Origin: a virus
Taxonomy: Duplodnaviria > Heunggongvirae > Uroviricota > Caudoviricetes
IMG/VR virus record: IMGVR_UViG_2740892442_000003
Direction: 5' to 3' (one strand)
Length of the DNA stretch: 6,597 nucleotides
Shown: positions 892-6,567 of the stretch, one piece after another
How the letters are laid out: every line of letters starts with the position of its first letter
Numbering within the stretch: position 1 is the first letter of the stretch
The notes under the pieces: model-generated
What the model saw: only the letters and a program-made list of their open reading frames with translations
Database searches by the model: none
Told to the model about the DNA's origin: nothing
Program-made: the position numbers and the translations under genes

Positions 892-918
892 GAAAATAAA
901 AAAACCGCCGGAGCGGTT
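892..918 (-). terminator. Putative intrinsic terminator between TerL and the protease gene (minus-strand transcript)
   Basis: Minus-strand RNA would form AACCGC-UCCG-GCGGUU (6-bp stem, 4-nt loop) followed by UUUUUUUAUUUU. No T-tract in the plus orientation. Confidence 0.55.
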
Positions 919-943
919 CGTGATGGTTACAGTGTGAACAGGG

Positions 944-3454: not shown

Positions 3455-3820
3455 TTACAGTCCGATGATGTCGTCCTCTCTGCCACTACCTCCGGACACC
3501 TCCGGCAGCGTCGGGTCCGGCATACCACTCGCCGCTTCACGAGCAGACTTTTGTCGATGGCATTCGGTACAGAGCGTCCAGAGATTCGTCTCCTCATTAC
3601 CACCACCGAACTGAAGTGCAATTCGGTGATCGAGTTCACTGTCACAGAGGTCAACCACACGACCACAGAGACGGCACTGCCCGGCGTCCCTGAGCCAGAT
3701 ATGACGCTTGAGGGAAACACGTGCACTGCCACTGACACGACGCTGTTCACCCTTCAGAATATTCACCCGTCGGGTATTCAGTGTTTTGATTCTGCTCTGG
3801 AGTGTACGAAGCTCAGCCAT
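3455..3820 (-). CDS. HNH endonuclease (terminase-associated)
   Basis: 121-aa ORF with Cys/His HNH motif CRLCGRVVD...ELDHRIALQFGGGNEETNLWTLCTECHRQK. GGGGA RBS 6 nt upstream of the ATG. Position upstream of TerS is typical of cos-packaging HK97-like phages. Confidence 0.85.
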   Translation of the reverse strand: MAELRTLQSRIKTLNTRRVNILKGEQRRVSGSARVSLKRHIWLRDAGQCRLCGRVVDLCDSELDHRIALQFGGGNEETNLWTLCTECHRQKSAREAASGMPDPTLPEVSGGSGREDDIIGL

Positions 3821-3861: not shown

Positions 3862-4062
3862 ATGTCATCGAAAAACCGTACCCGCAGAACCACAACCCGC
3901 AATATCCGTTTCCCCAATCACATAATTGAACAGATCAACATCGCCCTTGAGCATAAAGGGTCCGGTAACTTTTCAGCGTGGGTTATTGAAGCCTGCAGGA
4001 GAAGGCTGGCAACAGATGCAACGCATCTGCGCCCGGCCAGCATGACAAATAACGAGAAATGA
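3862..4062 (+). CDS. Small ribbon-helix-helix-like protein (YlcI/YnfO-type prophage ORF, DUF3950-like; family assignment from memory)
   Basis: 66-aa ORF from the internal ATG at 3862 with AAGGA RBS (track ORF begins further upstream at a GTG). MSSKNRTRRTTTRNIRFPNHIIEQINIALEHKGSGNFSAWVIEACRRRL has a strand-helix-helix pattern. Divergent from HNH across a 41-bp spacer. Confidence 0.65.
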   Translation: MSSKNRTRRTTTRNIRFPNHIIEQINIALEHKGSGNFSAWVIEACRRRLATDATHLRPASMTNNEK

Positions 4063-4260
4063 ACGTTCGGTTTCTTCCACCATCGCACCGGACAGGCGAC
4101 TATGAGGGGACAACGCCGCGCTCCGTTAACGCGGTAAACCCCGGTGTGTATCGTTTTTGATTATCCCCGCACACTCGCGCAGAGGAGTCTCCCTGTCGGG
4201 CTGCGGTCTCTGTTAATGCAGGAATACGGCGACAATACCGCGCATGGATAATAAGGTCGC

Positions 4261-4485
4261 TCAACACACTGGCTGTAATGCAGCGGATACCATGCGGCAT
4301 TTAGCGGCATTCATCGTACACTCCACGGTTAGCTCTTCATTCGTGGCATTCACCTGAAAGGTCCGGGAGTGTAATTGCGTACATTTACCACTGAACGAAC
4401 CTTCAACAAGAACACGACCACGCTGCAAAATACGGAACGGAATTGTTCCCTGAAAAGGTTCTACGGTTACCCGTAATTTCTTCAT
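4261..4485 (-). CDS. Hypothetical 74-aa protein translationally coupled to Rz
   Basis: ATG overlaps the Rz stop as ATGA; GGAGGA RBS 3 nt upstream. Four Cys, no signal peptide or transmembrane segment. No family recognised. Confidence 0.5.
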
Positions 4486-4976
4486 GTATCCTCCGGATAA
4501 TAAAAAGCCAGCTTAGTGCACTGAGTGCGGATATATTCCTGCGCCCCTTCCAGCTGCTTCTGCATTGTCATCAACCGTTCTCTGAGGATGAAATAATCCC
4601 GTTCAGCGGTGTCTGCCAGTCGGGGGCCGGTTGCATTATCCACGCTGGAGGTGCCGGTGGCTTCACGCACGGTACCGGGGCAGGTGGCGTTGACCCGCAG
4701 GCGCTTACGACCAGCGGCAACATCAGCGCGCAGAGTTTCATTTTCAGCTCTCGCATCGGCTAATTCCTTCGTGTATCTGGCATCAAGCGCAGCGACATCT
4801 CGCTGGCGCTGCTGCATGTCAGTAATAGTGGCATTCGCCAGTTTCAGCTCACTGACTTTTTTATCGCGCTGCGCTTTGTAGGTGATGGCGTTATCGCGGT
4901 AATGATTCAGCCCCAGACTAAGCACACCACAGGCTACCAGCAGGACAATAATCACCACACACAGAACACGGTTCAT
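4482..4976 (-). CDS. Rz: Rz i-spanin (inner-membrane spanin subunit)
   Basis: 164 aa from ATG at 4976; N-terminal transmembrane segment [20 protein letters not shown] followed by [17 protein letters not shown]...[20 protein letters not shown], closely resembling lambda Rz. The track ORF's upstream GTG extension is rejected. Confidence 0.9.
4571..4756 (-). CDS. Rz1: Rz1 o-spanin lipoprotein, embedded in the +1 frame of Rz
   Basis: 61-aa ORF wholly inside Rz; lipobox LVVSAC then proline-rich [26 protein letters not shown], closely resembling lambda Rz1. Confidence 0.85.
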
Positions 4977-4977
4977 A

Positions 4978-5064
4978 TCACCACCAACGGATTGCCCAGA
5001 CCAGAACAGCAATGGCCACAATACGAATGGCAAATGCCATTGCCCGAATAAGTTCAGCACTCAT
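4978..5064 (-). CDS. Small hydrophobic peptide D (28 aa, single predicted transmembrane helix)
   Basis: [28 protein letters not shown]. Its TGA stop lies 1 nt before the Rz ATG. Paralogous to the core of peptide C. Confidence 0.4.
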
Positions 5065-5075
5065 CTTTTTAAAGT

Positions 5076-5198
5076 TCACGATTTCAGCGCAATGACCAGT
5101 TTTGCCAGCCCATACAGCATCGGAGACACAGCAATACCAACAGCCACCCACTTAATAGCAAAAGCCAGCGCTCTGCTGATGTCATCAGTCACTGTCAC
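5076..5198 (-). CDS. Small hydrophobic peptide C (about 40 aa, single predicted transmembrane helix)
   Basis: GTG start overlapping the stop of peptide B (GTGA); (M)TVTDDISRALAFAIKWVAVGIAVSPMLYGLAKLVIALKS. Start codon uncertain. Confidence 0.4.
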   Translation of the reverse strand: MTVTDDISRALAFAIKWVAVGIAVSPMLYGLAKLVIALKS

Positions 5199-5326
5199 CC
5201 CAGCAGCCCCGACGAAGACAACATCACCCAGGCGAGGGACAGAAAAAGAGCAACCAGCATTAGTGAAAATGAAATACCGACAATCACACACAGGACCTTT
5301 GCCGGCGTTATGAGTTTGTCTGACAT
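5195..5326 (-). CDS. Small hydrophobic peptide B (43 aa, single predicted transmembrane helix)
   Basis: ATG with AAGGGG RBS 5 nt upstream; MSDKLITPAKVLCVIVGISFSLMLVALFLSLAWVMLSSSGLLG. Starts 2 nt after the stop of peptide A. Confidence 0.45.
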   Translation of the reverse strand: MSDKLITPAKVLCVIVGISFSLMLVALFLSLAWVMLSSSGLLG

Positions 5327-5328
5327 AG

Positions 5329-5424
5329 CTACCCCTTAATTGCCACAATTAACTGGGATACTACCCATAAAAAAGGGATGCTCCAGACCAGCAAAAATTT
5401 CCAGTTTGGTAATTGACTAATCAT
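5329..5424 (-). CDS. Small hydrophobic peptide A (31 aa, single predicted transmembrane helix)
   Basis: ATG at 5424 with AGGGAG RBS 9 nt upstream; MISQLPNWKFLLVWSIPFLWVVSQLIVAIKG. The longer GTG-started track ORF (to 5541) would read through the terminator hairpin and is rejected. Confidence 0.4.
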   Translation of the reverse strand: MISQLPNWKFLLVWSIPFLWVVSQLIVAIKG

Positions 5425-5495
5425 GAGTCGCAACTCCCTAATCAGTTTGCTAAAATCAATCAAGGCAGCCTCCCATAGCTTACTGCCATAAAAAC

Positions 5496-5535
5496 AAAAC
5501 CCCGCTTGCTGCCAACAAACGGGGTTTTTACTTTT
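5496..5535 (-). terminator. Strong hairpin with U-tracts on both sides (intrinsic terminator, stronger in the minus orientation)
   Basis: Arms 5496-5508 and 5516-5528 form a 13-bp stem with a 7-nt loop. In the minus-strand RNA there is one G-U wobble and a UUUUGUUUUUAU tail; in the plus orientation one C-A mismatch and a UUUUUACUUUUAUU tail. Lies 90 nt downstream of the endolysin stop. Confidence 0.6.
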
Positions 5536-5618
5536 ATTCACTTACATTTTGCCAGTTCGCAGGATTTCGTGTTATCCATCCGCCTTGGCCAACGTCATTT
5601 ATTAGCAAAATATTCTGC

Positions 5619-6152
5619 TTATCTGTCGATTCCCCAGCACGCCAGCGCGCTCTCCTGGTCACGACGGGATACCTGACCGTAACAGTTATTTGAGCGAATA
5701 CGGCAGTCCCTGCCACCGTCCTTAATCCACCAGCGAATCGCCTCACACGCTCCCCTGCGATCACCTGCATTAATTCGTTTATAAAACGTCGACGGAAAAC
5801 ACTTACCGGGGCCAATGTTGTACGGACAGAATGACGCGATCCCCGCTTTCTGGGGTTCACTCAATGGCACTCTGATGTTTTTCTCCACCCATGCCAGCGC
5901 CTTATCACGCTCAATGGCGTTAACCCGGTCGCATTTTTCCTTCGACAACTTCATGCCAGGAACGACAGGTTTGCCATCCACCAGGATGGCACCGCGGCAG
6001 ATGGTCCAGATACCCGCGCCATCACGGTATGCCGTGGTGTGGTTACCTTCCTTTTCATCCAGAAACTGGTCGAGAATGTCAGGCGCAGGCGCACCAGCGG
6101 CAATCAGCGCCAGAACGGCAGCCGACAGGCCGTATTTGATTTTGGTGTTCAT
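5619..6152 (-). CDS. R: SAR endolysin (phage lysozyme, T4-lysozyme-like glycoside hydrolase with N-terminal signal-anchor-release domain)
   Basis: 177-aa ORF. Weakly hydrophobic Gly/Ala-rich N-terminus YGLSAAVLALIAAGAPAP, then catalytic E-x8-D-x5-T in EGNHTTAYRDGAGIWT. Resembles lysozymes of lambdoid prophages (recalled, not searched). Confidence 0.9.
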   Translation of the reverse strand: MNTKIKYGLSAAVLALIAAGAPAPDILDQFLDEKEGNHTTAYRDGAGIWTICRGAILVDGKPVVPGMKLSKEKCDRVNAIERDKALAWVEKNIRVPLSEPQKAGIASFCPYNIGPGKCFPSTFYKRINAGDRRGACEAIRWWIKDGGRDCRIRSNNCYGQVSRRDQESALACWGIDR

Positions 6153-6215: not shown

Positions 6216-6567
6216 TTAAGGTTGTGATTCCGGAGGAGTCTTCAGAGAACCAGTAATTATTCCCGGTAGCTTTCCTTTGTAGGTTATCCATACATTCTGC
6301 GCCTCTAAAATTACGGGGCGCTTTTCCGGCGACTGCTCATCCCCTTCACATAACCCGGCAGCAACATCCAGGAAGACCTGTCTGATGCTCCTTCTGGCTG
6401 CTGCCTCATAAAACTCCAGCGTGGCACCTTCAACACGGTCCAGCGAGATGTCCAGGTCAAAAATTTCACCGTCAAAGCGTTTTTTTGTCCCGTAACGCTA
6501 AAGTTACCGTAACTTTATTCTCAAAATTGCGGATCCCTTTCACAATCAGTTCATAGTTTTGAGTCAT
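6216..6567 (-). pseudogene. Small conserved-looking ORF upstream of endolysin, split by a +1 frameshift in an A7 run (possibly ydfR-like; tentative)
   Basis: ATG at 6567 with GGGGAGAG RBS gives MTQNYELIVKGIRNFENKVTVTLALRDKKTL then stop. The +1 frame continues from the A7 tract (T7 on plus strand, 6480-6486) as RFDGEIFDLDISLDRVEGATLEFYEAAARRSIRQVFLDVAAGLCEGDEQSPEKRPVILEAQNVWITYKGKLPGIITGSLKTPPESQP with no start codon of its own. Confidence 0.5.

What the first reader, a model, noticed from the sequence alone, without database searches (positions are those of the whole stretch)
5496..5535. Strong hairpin terminator inside the lysis cassette, directly after the endolysin
A 13-bp GC-rich stem with flanking U-tracts sits between R and the small-peptide/Rz unit. 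In lambda-type late operons nothing interrupts S-R-Rz. Expression of the peptides and spanins would then depend on Q-type antitermination readthrough or on a separate promoter, which would uncouple endolysin from spanin expression outside the lytic cycle. The hairpin also marks one edge of the inserted block, consistent with a moron-like acquisition.
Basis: seen in the sequence. Interest (0 to 1): 0.5.

Follow-up and report, generated by a model that had tools for sequence, protein, structure and literature searches.

The report
Terminator hairpin after prophage endolysin gene
A real, strong transcription-terminator hairpin sits just after the endolysin gene of an E. coli lambda-like prophage; it is found in about a third of complete E. 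coli genomes and is best read as one of several ordinary internal terminators that the phage's Q antiterminator overrides.

Summary
The hairpin is real, but the genes lie on the minus strand. The stem-loop is 5528..5496 and its U-tract is 5495..5486. It starts 90 nt after the stop codon of a lysozyme-family (phage R) endolysin. It folds at -24.2 kcal/mol (z = -5.3) and is markedly stronger on the sense strand than on the antisense strand.

The window is an E. coli lambdoid prophage. The same hairpin occurs in 2020 of 5426 complete E. coli genomes. Its stem is kept in 22 sequence variants, through G.U changes and a few compensatory changes.

Only 33 nt separate the hairpin from the first of four tightly packed small membrane-peptide genes, which run straight into Rz/Rz1. 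I found no separate promoter there. These genes and everything downstream therefore appear to depend on read-through. An otherwise matching prophage has a Q gene 6 kb upstream and five similar sense-strand terminator-like hairpins between Q and R.

The R-Rz gap is a shuffling hot spot holding peptides or the Ant antirepressor. The cargo is also not a classic moron: it has no promoter, and the terminator precedes it.

Internal terminators in lambdoid late operons are already known, with unknown roles. This is a new member of a known kind. No transcript data were available.

The parts
5619..6152 (-). Endolysin R, 177 aa, lysozyme family. I read its hydrophobic N-terminus as a signal-anchor (SAR) type by recall; this was not tested.
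   Evidence: Pfam PF00959 (E = 1.3e-23) and phrog_7 endolysin. Annotated as lysozyme/rrrQ in matching E. coli records.
5529..5618 (-). 90-nt non-coding spacer (R 3' UTR) between the R stop codon and the hairpin
   Evidence: Shared by phages with different hairpins and different cargo. It contains an invariant small stem-loop right after the stop codon and two variable blocks. No convincing covariation was found. It is absent from relatives in which R abuts Rz.
5496..5528 (-). Stem-loop of the intrinsic-terminator-like element: 15 pairs and a 3-nt loop, with an 11-bp core
   Evidence: core -15.6 kcal/mol; terminator score +28.2 on the sense strand against +0.2 on the antisense strand. 92% of cells are paired across 22 variants. 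The sense strand is the more stable in 21 of 22 variants.
5486..5495 (-). U-tract of the terminator (GUUUUUAUGG; together with the stem's last four U it reads UUUUGUUUUUAU)
   Evidence: A UUUU run directly after the stem is kept in nearly all class A variants.
5329..5463 (-). pepA: 44-aa hydrophobic peptide with a TTG start; ribosome-binding site GGGAGG at 5474..5469
   Evidence: Sequence read. phrog_6632 matches residues 28-69 of the longer 70-aa ORF, that is, only the part downstream of the hairpin. Relatives start this ORF after the hairpin.
5195..5326 (-). pepB: 43-aa membrane peptide; its ATG follows the pepA stop codon by 2 nt
   Evidence: phrog_4906, E = 4.5e-21. Annotated as hypothetical in RefSeq. 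Homologue of ORF53 next to ant in phage P13374.
5076..5198 (-). pepC: 40-aa membrane peptide; its GTG start overlaps the pepB stop codon
   Evidence: phrog_1115, phrog_3246 and phrog_4493. Other phages have a longer 60-aa form.
4978..5079 (-). pepD: 33-aa membrane peptide that hits the same PHROG families as pepC; its GTG start overlaps the pepC stop codon
   Evidence: phrog_4493, E = 4.4e-7. Sequence read.
4482..4976 (-). Rz (inner-membrane spanin subunit); its ATG lies 1 nt after the pepD stop codon. Embedded ORF 4571..4756, read as Rz1 by position.
   Evidence: Pfam PF03245 (E = 4.4e-51) and phrog_13. Embedded ORF listed; an Rz1 is annotated at the equivalent embedded position in 933W and Sakai Sp9.

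Best explanation
The hairpin is a Rho-independent (intrinsic) terminator on the sense strand of the prophage late operon. It closes the holin-YdfR-endolysin module.

RNA polymerase that has not been modified by the phage Q antiterminator would stop here, about 7-9 nt into the U-tract (roughly 5489..5487). Q-modified polymerase, loaded at the late promoter about 6 kb upstream, would read through it, as it must for the other terminator-like hairpins in the same operon. It would then transcribe the four small membrane peptides, Rz/Rz1 and the packaging and head genes.

So the peptides and spanins have no expression route of their own and are strictly late genes. The hairpin is one of a series of module-end terminators in a mosaic late operon.

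Shown: the structure, its strand specificity, its conservation, the lack of room for a promoter, the tight gene packing, and Q with other terminator-like hairpins upstream. Inferred: actual termination, and read-through by Q.
For: - Canonical anatomy: an 11-bp core stem with five consecutive C-G/G-C pairs at its base (CCCCG/CGGGG), directly followed by UUUUGUUUUUAU, lying 90 nt after a stop codon.
- Fold of -24.2 kcal/mol, z = -5.25, with 0 of 200 shuffles folding as well.
- A terminator score of the d'Aubenton-Carafa form, recomputed with ViennaRNA energies, gives +28.2. The likely tR' of the matching prophage scores +35.0 and four other sense-strand hairpins there score +14 to +34.
- Strand specificity: two G.U pairs become C.A mismatches on the other strand. 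The antisense score is +0.2, and 21 of 22 variants are more stable on the sense strand (mean -17.5 against -13.1 kcal/mol).
- Across 22 distinct variants 92.3% of cells pair, against 46-58% when the partners are slid. Pair 11-25 occurs as U-G, A-U, U-A and G-C. Variation is concentrated in the loop.
- The hairpin is present in 2020 of 5426 complete E. coli genomes at 3867 places, and is unannotated in every sampled row.
- All 45 distinct sequence variants from about 130 loci anchored on the R 3' UTR carry a hairpin at this spot, whatever cargo follows.
- An unrelated endolysin cassette (read as an L-Ala-D-Glu peptidase from its sequence; not checked against a family library) ends with its own unrelated strong hairpin, GCCCACG..CGUGGGC+UUUUU, score +25.0, before the same Ant module.
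- No sense-strand promoter-like site lies nearby, and only 33 nt separate the hairpin from the pepA start. The pepA, pepB, pepC, pepD and Rz genes have overlapping or adjacent stop and start codons.
- The matching prophage has an antitermination gene upstream.
- Predicted terminators inside single-promoter lambdoid late operons are described as common (PMC8022706).
Against: - No transcript, 3'-end or reporter data were available, so termination and read-through are both inferred.
- The hairpins found at the same spot in other phages score poorly as terminators: class B -0.8 at best and -35 to -39 in P13374 and 933W, class C -12, one class A variant -3.7. Strong termination here is therefore not universally maintained.
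- Covariation is modest: only 2 pairs show changes on both sides, and mean column identity is 92%. Conservation could partly reflect recent common ancestry.
- The lethal genes (holin and endolysin) lie upstream of the hairpin, so what it would protect the lysogen from is unclear.
- Any partial termination during lytic growth would also reduce head and packaging gene expression.
Confidence: 0.6

Rival explanations
1. The hairpin is an RNA processing or stability element. Q-modified polymerase reads through it. Once in the long late mRNA, it blocks 3'-to-5' exonucleases after an endonuclease cut in the A/U-rich tract just downstream. The holin-endolysin segment would then outlast the downstream segment, which would set the ratio of lysis proteins. 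This is compatible with the terminator reading rather than exclusive of it.
For: A stable sense-strand stem is followed by a single-stranded U-rich stretch. That arrangement is typical of stabilising intercistronic hairpins (my own knowledge). The downstream hairpin variants that are poor terminators (class B and class C) still form stems. This fits a role that needs a stem but not a U-tract.
Against: There are no decay or processing data. The near-perfect U-tract of class A is not needed for a purely protective hairpin, yet it is conserved.
Confidence: 0.2
2. The conserved 90-nt R 3' UTR and the terminator together form a small regulatory RNA derived from the 3' UTR. It would be released by termination or by processing of the late transcript, and its U-tail would bind Hfq. 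This would be analogous to StxS, which is made by termination at tR'.
For: The layout is small stem-loop, second stem, about 30 nt of A-rich single strand, then terminator and U-tail. The UTR is shared across phages with different cargo. Phage late regions are known to hold terminator-ended sRNAs: StxS (PMC7547250), HnrS (PMC13502914) and PasB inside a structural operon.
Against: There is no Rfam hit. I found no convincing promoter by eye in the UTR, and the scan found none. The single-stranded stretch that would be the seed contains one of the two most variable blocks. The Hfq-crosslinking list for strain Sakai has no site at an R 3' end. That evidence is weak: the cultures were uninduced, sites within 100 bp of coding regions were filtered out, and the Sakai prophages I examined carry class B hairpins or a truncated endolysin. 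The U-tail is interrupted by a G.
Confidence: 0.1
3. The hairpin mainly stops antisense (plus-strand) transcription. Such transcription would come from the oppositely oriented YlcI/YnfO-family gene and the HnrS-like region downstream of Rz, and the hairpin would keep it from running into the endolysin and holin genes.
For: A-run and T-run flanks make the element formally two-directional. The plus-strand RNA still folds at -15.3 kcal/mol (z = -4.0) with UUUUUACUUUUAU after it. Plus-strand genes do lie downstream.
Against: The plus-strand version has two C.A mismatches and scores +0.2 against +28.2. Variants accumulate G.U pairs that keep only the sense-strand stem.
Confidence: 0.07
4. The hairpin has no function of its own. 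It would be a relic, such as the terminator of an ancestral holin-endolysin unit, or a recombination scar carried along with a very successful and recently spread prophage module.
For: The variants are very similar (92% column identity) and covariation is modest. Mosaic joints fall immediately before and after the hairpin.
Against: Substitutions in the stem are biased towards pair-preserving changes, while the loop and parts of the UTR vary freely. Unrelated hairpins occupy the same junction in other cassettes.
Confidence: 0.08

Closest known systems
Intrinsic terminators overridden by lambdoid Q antitermination (lambda, 82 and 21 tR'; Stx-phage tR', which yields StxS)
   Same: A canonical hairpin with a U-tract on the sense strand, downstream of a Q-type gene in the late operon. 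The expected behaviour is to stop unmodified polymerase and be ignored by Q-modified polymerase (PMC7547250).
   Different: It lies about 6 kb downstream of Q, inside the lysis cassette. It is not the terminator next to the promoter where the late switch is made. No RNA product is known.
Predicted intra-operon terminators in P22-like late operons (phage L genome paper, PMC8022706)
   Same: Predicted Rho-independent terminators inside a late operon that has a single promoter. The authors say these are not unique to phage L and that their roles are unknown. They suggest partial termination, or stopping spurious transcription that lacks antitermination.
   Different: That example sits after the procapsid gene module of a Salmonella phage. 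This one follows the endolysin of E. coli lambdoid prophages, and its conservation is documented here.
Morons (promoter-gene-terminator inserts in phage late operons)
   Same: Extra DNA inserted between adjacent late genes. Its content varies between related phages and it is linked to a terminator (definition as given in PMC2629481, and PMC4104026).
   Different: No promoter was found. The terminator is upstream of the cargo, not downstream. The cargo is closely packed with, and probably translationally coupled to, the spanin gene.
P22 'ant moron' between genes 16 and 9
   Same: A highly variable insert in a late operon that often carries an antirepressor. It is thought to influence how often late-promoter polymerase transcribes into the downstream gene (PMC2629481). 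Sister phages here carry ant in the R-Rz gap.
   Different: The location differs, and the P22 insert has its own regulators (mnt, arc, sar). This window carries peptides, not ant.
Terminator-ended phage small RNAs in late regions (StxS, HnrS, PasB)
   Same: Short conserved non-coding stretches that end in an intrinsic terminator inside or beside late genes of the same prophage group.
   Different: No promoter, Hfq binding or RNA species has been shown for the R 3' UTR. HnrS itself maps elsewhere in this window (plus strand, 4133-4180).

Membership tests
Rho-independent (intrinsic) terminator | A stem with G-C pairs at its base and a short loop (3-8 nt) | tested here: met
   11-bp core, or 15 bp with the A-U extension; 3-nt loop; base CCCCG/CGGGG; core -15.6 kcal/mol.
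Rho-independent (intrinsic) terminator | A U-tract directly after the stem on the transcribed strand | tested here: met
   UUUUGUUUUUAU follows the core stem, with a weighted T count of 4.67. The combined score is +28.2, similar to the likely tR' (+35.0).
Rho-independent (intrinsic) terminator | Lies downstream of a gene, on that gene's strand | tested here: met
   It starts 90 nt after the R stop codon, on the same strand. The sense strand is favoured in 21 of 22 variants.
Rho-independent (intrinsic) terminator | RNA 3' ends map to the U-tract, and termination is measurable | not testable with these tools
   No transcript data could be reached. The Term-seq paper on strain Sakai has no supplementary files held as text.
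Terminator overridden by Q antitermination | A Q-type antiterminator gene and a late promoter lie upstream in the same transcription unit | tested here: met
   The prophage in NZ_CP135658, which is 100% identical over the 701 nt tested and has the same gene order, has an annotated antitermination protein gene 6 kb upstream. All intervening late genes are on the same strand, with five further sense-strand terminator-like hairpins. The late promoter itself was not located. Q is not inside this window.
Terminator overridden by Q antitermination | Read-through that depends on Q | not testable with these tools
   This needs a reporter assay or transcript mapping with and without Q.
Moron | An own promoter upstream of the inserted gene(s) | tested here: not met
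   No sense-strand promoter-like site lies between R and Rz. Only 33 nt, including the ribosome-binding site, separate the hairpin from the pepA start.
Moron | A terminator downstream of the inserted gene(s) | tested here: not met
   The terminator is upstream of the cargo. The pepD stop codon is 1 nt from the Rz ATG, with no hairpin between them.
Moron | Present or absent between otherwise adjacent genes in related phages | tested here: met
   R overlaps or abuts Rz in K-12 Qin and in many Enterobacterales relatives. The cargo varies among E. coli phages.
Hfq-dependent small RNA derived from a 3' UTR | A discrete RNA species with Hfq binding | tested here: inconclusive
   No site at an R 3' end appears in the published Hfq-crosslinking list for strain Sakai. 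Those cultures were uninduced, sites near coding regions were filtered out, and the Sakai prophages I examined carry class B hairpins or a truncated endolysin.
Hfq-dependent small RNA derived from a 3' UTR | A conserved single-stranded seed upstream of the terminator | tested here: not met
   The single-stranded stretch contains one of the two most variable blocks of the UTR (columns 71-78).
Any described RNA family (Rfam 15) | A covariance-model match | tested here: not met
   The only hit in the window is a chance-level snoRNA match elsewhere (E = 0.59).
Dispersed extragenic palindrome (REP/BIME-like) | Copies scattered in many unrelated intergenic contexts | tested here: not met
   Among phage records the matches lie at or just after a lysozyme/R gene. 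In E. coli genomes there is a median of 2 copies per genome that has any, which tracks prophage number. The genomic context of every one of the 3867 places was not inspected.

The most novel reading that the evidence does not exclude
The conserved 90-nt endolysin 3' UTR and its terminator form a small RNA of about 60-135 nt derived from the 3' UTR, made in roughly a third of E. coli strains. It would be released whenever transcription without Q reaches the end of the holin-endolysin module, or by processing of the late mRNA on induction. It would act on host or prophage targets, as StxS does for tR'.
Probability: 0.1. Interest if true: 0.6.

Novelty: new member of a known kind. Interest (0 to 1): 0.3.

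Why it matters
It matters modestly. If the hairpin terminates as predicted, the spanins, the small lysis-cassette peptides (or Ant in Shiga-toxin phages) and all head and packaging genes in this very common prophage family can only be reached by Q-modified polymerase. That would be a second safety barrier beyond tR'.

It also shows the lysis cassette to be two exchangeable modules, holin-endolysin-terminator and cargo-spanin, with a recombination hot spot at the terminator. This helps explain why Ant and small membrane peptides accumulate there.

The role of terminators inside late operons is an acknowledged open question. This element is abundant, varies naturally in predicted strength, and could be tested on existing Term-seq data.

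Tried and rejected
- Rfam scan of the whole window at a permissive threshold: nothing relevant.
- Separate promoter for the peptide/Rz genes: none on the sense strand. Reading by eye, a TTGGCA in the loop followed 16 nt later by TTTTAT lacks the conserved A at -10 position 2, so I rejected it.
- Plus-strand small RNA running from the predicted promoter at 5320-5349 to the hairpin: the promoter match is 9 of 12 and no better than chance (4 sites found, 4.8 expected), and the plus-strand hairpin is weak.
- DNA palindrome acting as a protein-binding site: rejected, because the arms are complementary only through G.U pairs on one strand, and variants add more such pairs.
- Known prophage small RNAs. 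PasA, PasC and PasD lie upstream of the holin, not here. HnrS maps to 4133-4180 on the plus strand. No EcOnc site lies at an R 3' end.
- Full-text search for the hairpin sequence: no paper.
- Tiny ORFs in the 3' UTR (8-16 codons): their start codons are not conserved across variants.
- Extra conserved structure in the UTR: no covariation.
- Search for a class A copy in strain Sakai, to point at the public Term-seq data. Sp9 and Sp15 carry class B, and the Sp17 endolysin is truncated next to insertion sequences.
- The search for related loci with pepB failed because the peptide is too short. I replaced it with a DNA pattern scan.

Full report
**What the window is.** All genes of interest are on the minus strand. 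Reading that strand, the order is:
- a YdfR-family ORF broken by a frameshift;
- a 177-aa lysozyme-family endolysin R (6152..5619);
- the hairpin;
- four small hydrophobic ORFs;
- Rz (4976..4482), with an embedded ORF read as Rz1;
- a 74-aa ORF;
- an oppositely oriented YlcI/YnfO-family gene;
- an HNH endonuclease, the small and large terminase subunits, and a prohead protease.

A 701-nt stretch around the finding is 100% identical to E. coli TUM10008 (NZ_CP135658), and the annotated gene order there matches the window. Places covering at least 80% of that stretch occur in 587 complete E. coli genomes. The window is therefore a common E. coli lambdoid prophage.

**The observation.** The sense RNA is AAAACCCCGUUUGUU-GGC-AGCAAGCGGGGUUUU (5528..5496), followed by GUUUUUAUGG.
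- It forms 15 pairs: 6 G-C, 7 A-U and 2 G.U.
- The 60-nt sense RNA folds at -24.2 kcal/mol. Shuffles average -10.4 (z = -5.25), and none of 200 does as well. The plus-strand RNA reaches -15.3 kcal/mol.
- The 11-bp core has -15.6 kcal/mol. A terminator score of the d'Aubenton-Carafa form, recomputed with ViennaRNA energies and so only relative, is +28.2 on the sense strand and +0.2 on the antisense strand.
'GC-rich' holds only for the base of the stem.

**Distribution and conservation.**
- A 53-nt query covering the hairpin matches 3867 places in 2020 of 5426 complete E. coli genomes. The median is 2 per genome that has any. The match is unannotated in all sampled rows.
- I anchored on a conserved 18-mer of the R 3' UTR and collected about 130 loci from phage records and IMG/VR. 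Every one of the 45 distinct sequences has a hairpin at this position.
- Most are 'class A', the family in this window. The Ant-carrying Shiga-toxin phages (933W, P13374, Sakai Sp9) have an unrelated 'class B' hairpin, GGCACC-GUAAU-GGUGCC. A few loci have a third form.
- Among 22 distinct class A and related variants, 92.3% of cells pair, against 46-58% when the partners are slid. Pair 11-25 occurs as U-G, A-U, U-A and G-C, and several other pairs switch between G.U, A-U and G-C. Variation is concentrated in the loop.
- Covariation is modest: two pairs show changes on both sides, and the sequences are close relatives.
- The strand asymmetry is clearer. In 21 of 22 variants the sense RNA is the more stable (mean -17.5 against -13.1 kcal/mol), and some variants gain G.U pairs that destroy the antisense stem. 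This argues for an RNA-level role on the late-transcript strand and against a DNA palindrome.

**Context of the insert.**
- In K-12 Qin, rrrQ overlaps rzpQ.
- Among 75 loci that encode this endolysin in other Enterobacterales species, R usually overlaps or abuts Rz, and no comparable 3' UTR or hairpin is present. Only the one close Escherichia relative has them.
- The whole R-to-Rz interval is therefore a derived insert of the Escherichia phage lineage (about 640 nt in this window), and its left edge is the R stop codon.
- Within that lineage the 90-nt UTR is constant while the cargo after the hairpin is shuffled. Observed arrangements include pepA; pepA-pepB; pepA-B-C-D (this window); long-pepC-pepB; Ant-pepB; and a 231-aa ORF followed by a pepA-like ORF and pepB. 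Both hairpin classes occur with several cargos.
- BLAST matches of phage records to the UTR stop at query positions 93, 102 or 136-139, that is, immediately before, at the start of, or just after the hairpin. The hairpin thus sits at a recombination joint.
- Two loci have an unrelated holin-endolysin cassette. I read that endolysin as an L-Ala-D-Glu peptidase from its sequence and did not check it against a family library. These loci carry their own unrelated strong hairpin (GCCCACG..CGUGGGC+UUUUU, score +25.0) before the same Ant leader.
- Together this supports a view of the lysis cassette as two modules: holin-endolysin-terminator, and cargo-spanin.

**How the downstream genes are expressed.**
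- The first peptide ORF starts at TTG 5463, with GGGAGG at 5474..5469. Its PHROG family profile is 45 aa and matches only the part downstream of the hairpin.
- RefSeq's 70-aa call, which starts at GTG 5541 and spans the hairpin, is probably over-extended.
- Only 33 nt lie between the hairpin and this start, and no promoter-like site was found on that strand.
- The junctions between the ORFs are tight: UAGCUAUG between pepA and pepB, GUGA overlaps at the pepB/pepC and pepC/pepD junctions, and UGAUAUG between pepD and Rz.
- These genes and everything beyond them therefore depend on polymerase that passes the hairpin.
- In the matching TUM10008 prophage an antitermination protein gene lies 6 kb upstream. 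Between it and R there are five more sense-strand terminator-like hairpins (scores +14 to +35), including a likely tR' about 85 nt after Q. Another lies in this window at 919..902, between the large terminase and the protease (score +32.0).
- The hairpin is thus one of a series that a Q-loaded polymerase must ignore.

**Comparison with what is known.**
- That Q-modified polymerase reads through downstream terminators is established for lambdoid phages and is summarised for Shiga-toxin phages in PMC7547250.
- Predicted terminators inside P22-like late operons are described in PMC8022706 as 'not unique' and of unknown role. The two suggested roles are partial termination, or stopping transcription that began without antitermination.
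- The insert fails two of the three defining features of a moron: an own promoter and a downstream terminator.
- I found no paper that describes this particular element. It is not any of the known prophage small RNAs, and it has no Rfam match.

**Caveats.**
- There are no transcript data, so termination and read-through are inferred.
- The class B and class C hairpins score at or below zero as terminators, and the 933W form has an internal mismatch. Strong termination at this junction is therefore not universal. This leaves room for a role in RNA stability or processing, or for partial relic status.
- A small RNA derived from the 3' UTR is not excluded. It lacks support: no promoter was found, the would-be seed is variable, and there is no Hfq site in the one available list, which is itself weak negative evidence.

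**Verdict.** It is partly wrong: the premise about uninterrupted S-R-Rz, the placement of the insert edge, and the moron label. The element is a new, very widespread member of a known kind, of modest interest.

Noticed in passing
window 4978-5463 (minus strand): Four tandem, tightly packed small hydrophobic peptide ORFs lie between the endolysin and Rz: pepA (44 aa), pepB (43 aa), pepC (40 aa) and pepD (33 aa). They belong to PHROG families of unknown function (6632; 4906; 1115/3246/4493), and pepC and pepD hit the same families. Related phages carry them in many combinations. pepB most often lies just upstream of Rz, including after Ant in Shiga-toxin phages.
   Followed up: partly
window 4133-4180 (plus strand); wider match 4070-4245: This stretch is 47/48 identical to the Hfq-crosslinking peak EcOnc12 of Sakai prophage Sp9, since renamed HnrS, an sRNA reported to repress hha. 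It lies after the YlcI/YnfO-family gene and antisense to the late operon, so the window probably encodes an HnrS copy. The mapping assumes that the two Sakai record versions share coordinates.
   Followed up: partly
window 902-919 (minus strand), tail to about 890: A second sense-strand terminator-like hairpin (AACCGCUCCGGCGGUU followed by UUUUUUAUUUU; score +32.0) lies inside the late operon, between the large terminase stop codon (944) and the prohead protease start (880).
   Followed up: partly
window 6480-6486 (minus strand); ORF about 6567-6313: The YdfR-family ORF upstream of the endolysin is split by a frameshift at a run of seven A. RefSeq marks it 'frameshifted' in the matching E. coli record. 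I cannot tell whether this is a pseudogene, a sequencing artefact or slippage.
   Followed up: no
window 5329-5541 (minus strand): RefSeq annotates a 70-aa hypothetical protein (WP_001043230.1) that starts at GTG 5541 and would be translated through the hairpin. Family matches and relatives indicate that the real ORF starts at TTG 5463, so this call is probably over-extended.
   Followed up: yes
L151, L178, L183, L196, L199, L201 (just after the endolysin stop codon, about 3510-3650): In Citrobacter, Enterobacter, Morganella and Kluyvera prophages (and one metagenome bin labelled Geobacteraceae), a roughly 30-aa hydrophobic ORF sits between this endolysin and Rz. It overlaps the R stop codon (AUGA) and has no non-coding spacer or hairpin. 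Small membrane peptides at this junction may therefore be widespread and independent of the terminator.
   Followed up: no
L239 and L277 (about 1385-1425 of the extracted segments): An unrelated holin-endolysin cassette ends with its own strong terminator-like hairpin (GCCCACGUAAAGGCGUGGGC followed by UUUUUCAU; score +25.0) just before the same Ant-pepB-Rz module found in Shiga-toxin phages. I read the endolysin as an L-Ala-D-Glu peptidase from its sequence.
   Followed up: partly
L278 10129-14822 (plus strand; the matching prophage in NZ_CP135658): Five further sense-strand terminator-like hairpins lie between the Q gene and the holin: after Q, after a small ORF, after the tRNA cluster, near the antisense iraM gene, and after the esterase gene. 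All the strongest predicted terminators in this region are on the late-operon strand.
   Followed up: partly
window about 5540-5550 and 5580-5595 (minus strand); alignment A3 columns 71-78 and 25-40: Two short blocks of the otherwise conserved R 3' UTR are hypervariable between phages, for example AAAAUGU, AAAAACU, GAAACGU and AAAACCU just before AAGUGAAUAAA. I found no coding or pairing explanation.
   Followed up: partly
window 4261-4485 (minus strand): A 74-aa ORF overlaps the Rz stop codon. It matches only the C-terminal part of PHROG 2571 (positions 100-172 of 291; unknown function) and may be a truncated gene.
   Followed up: no
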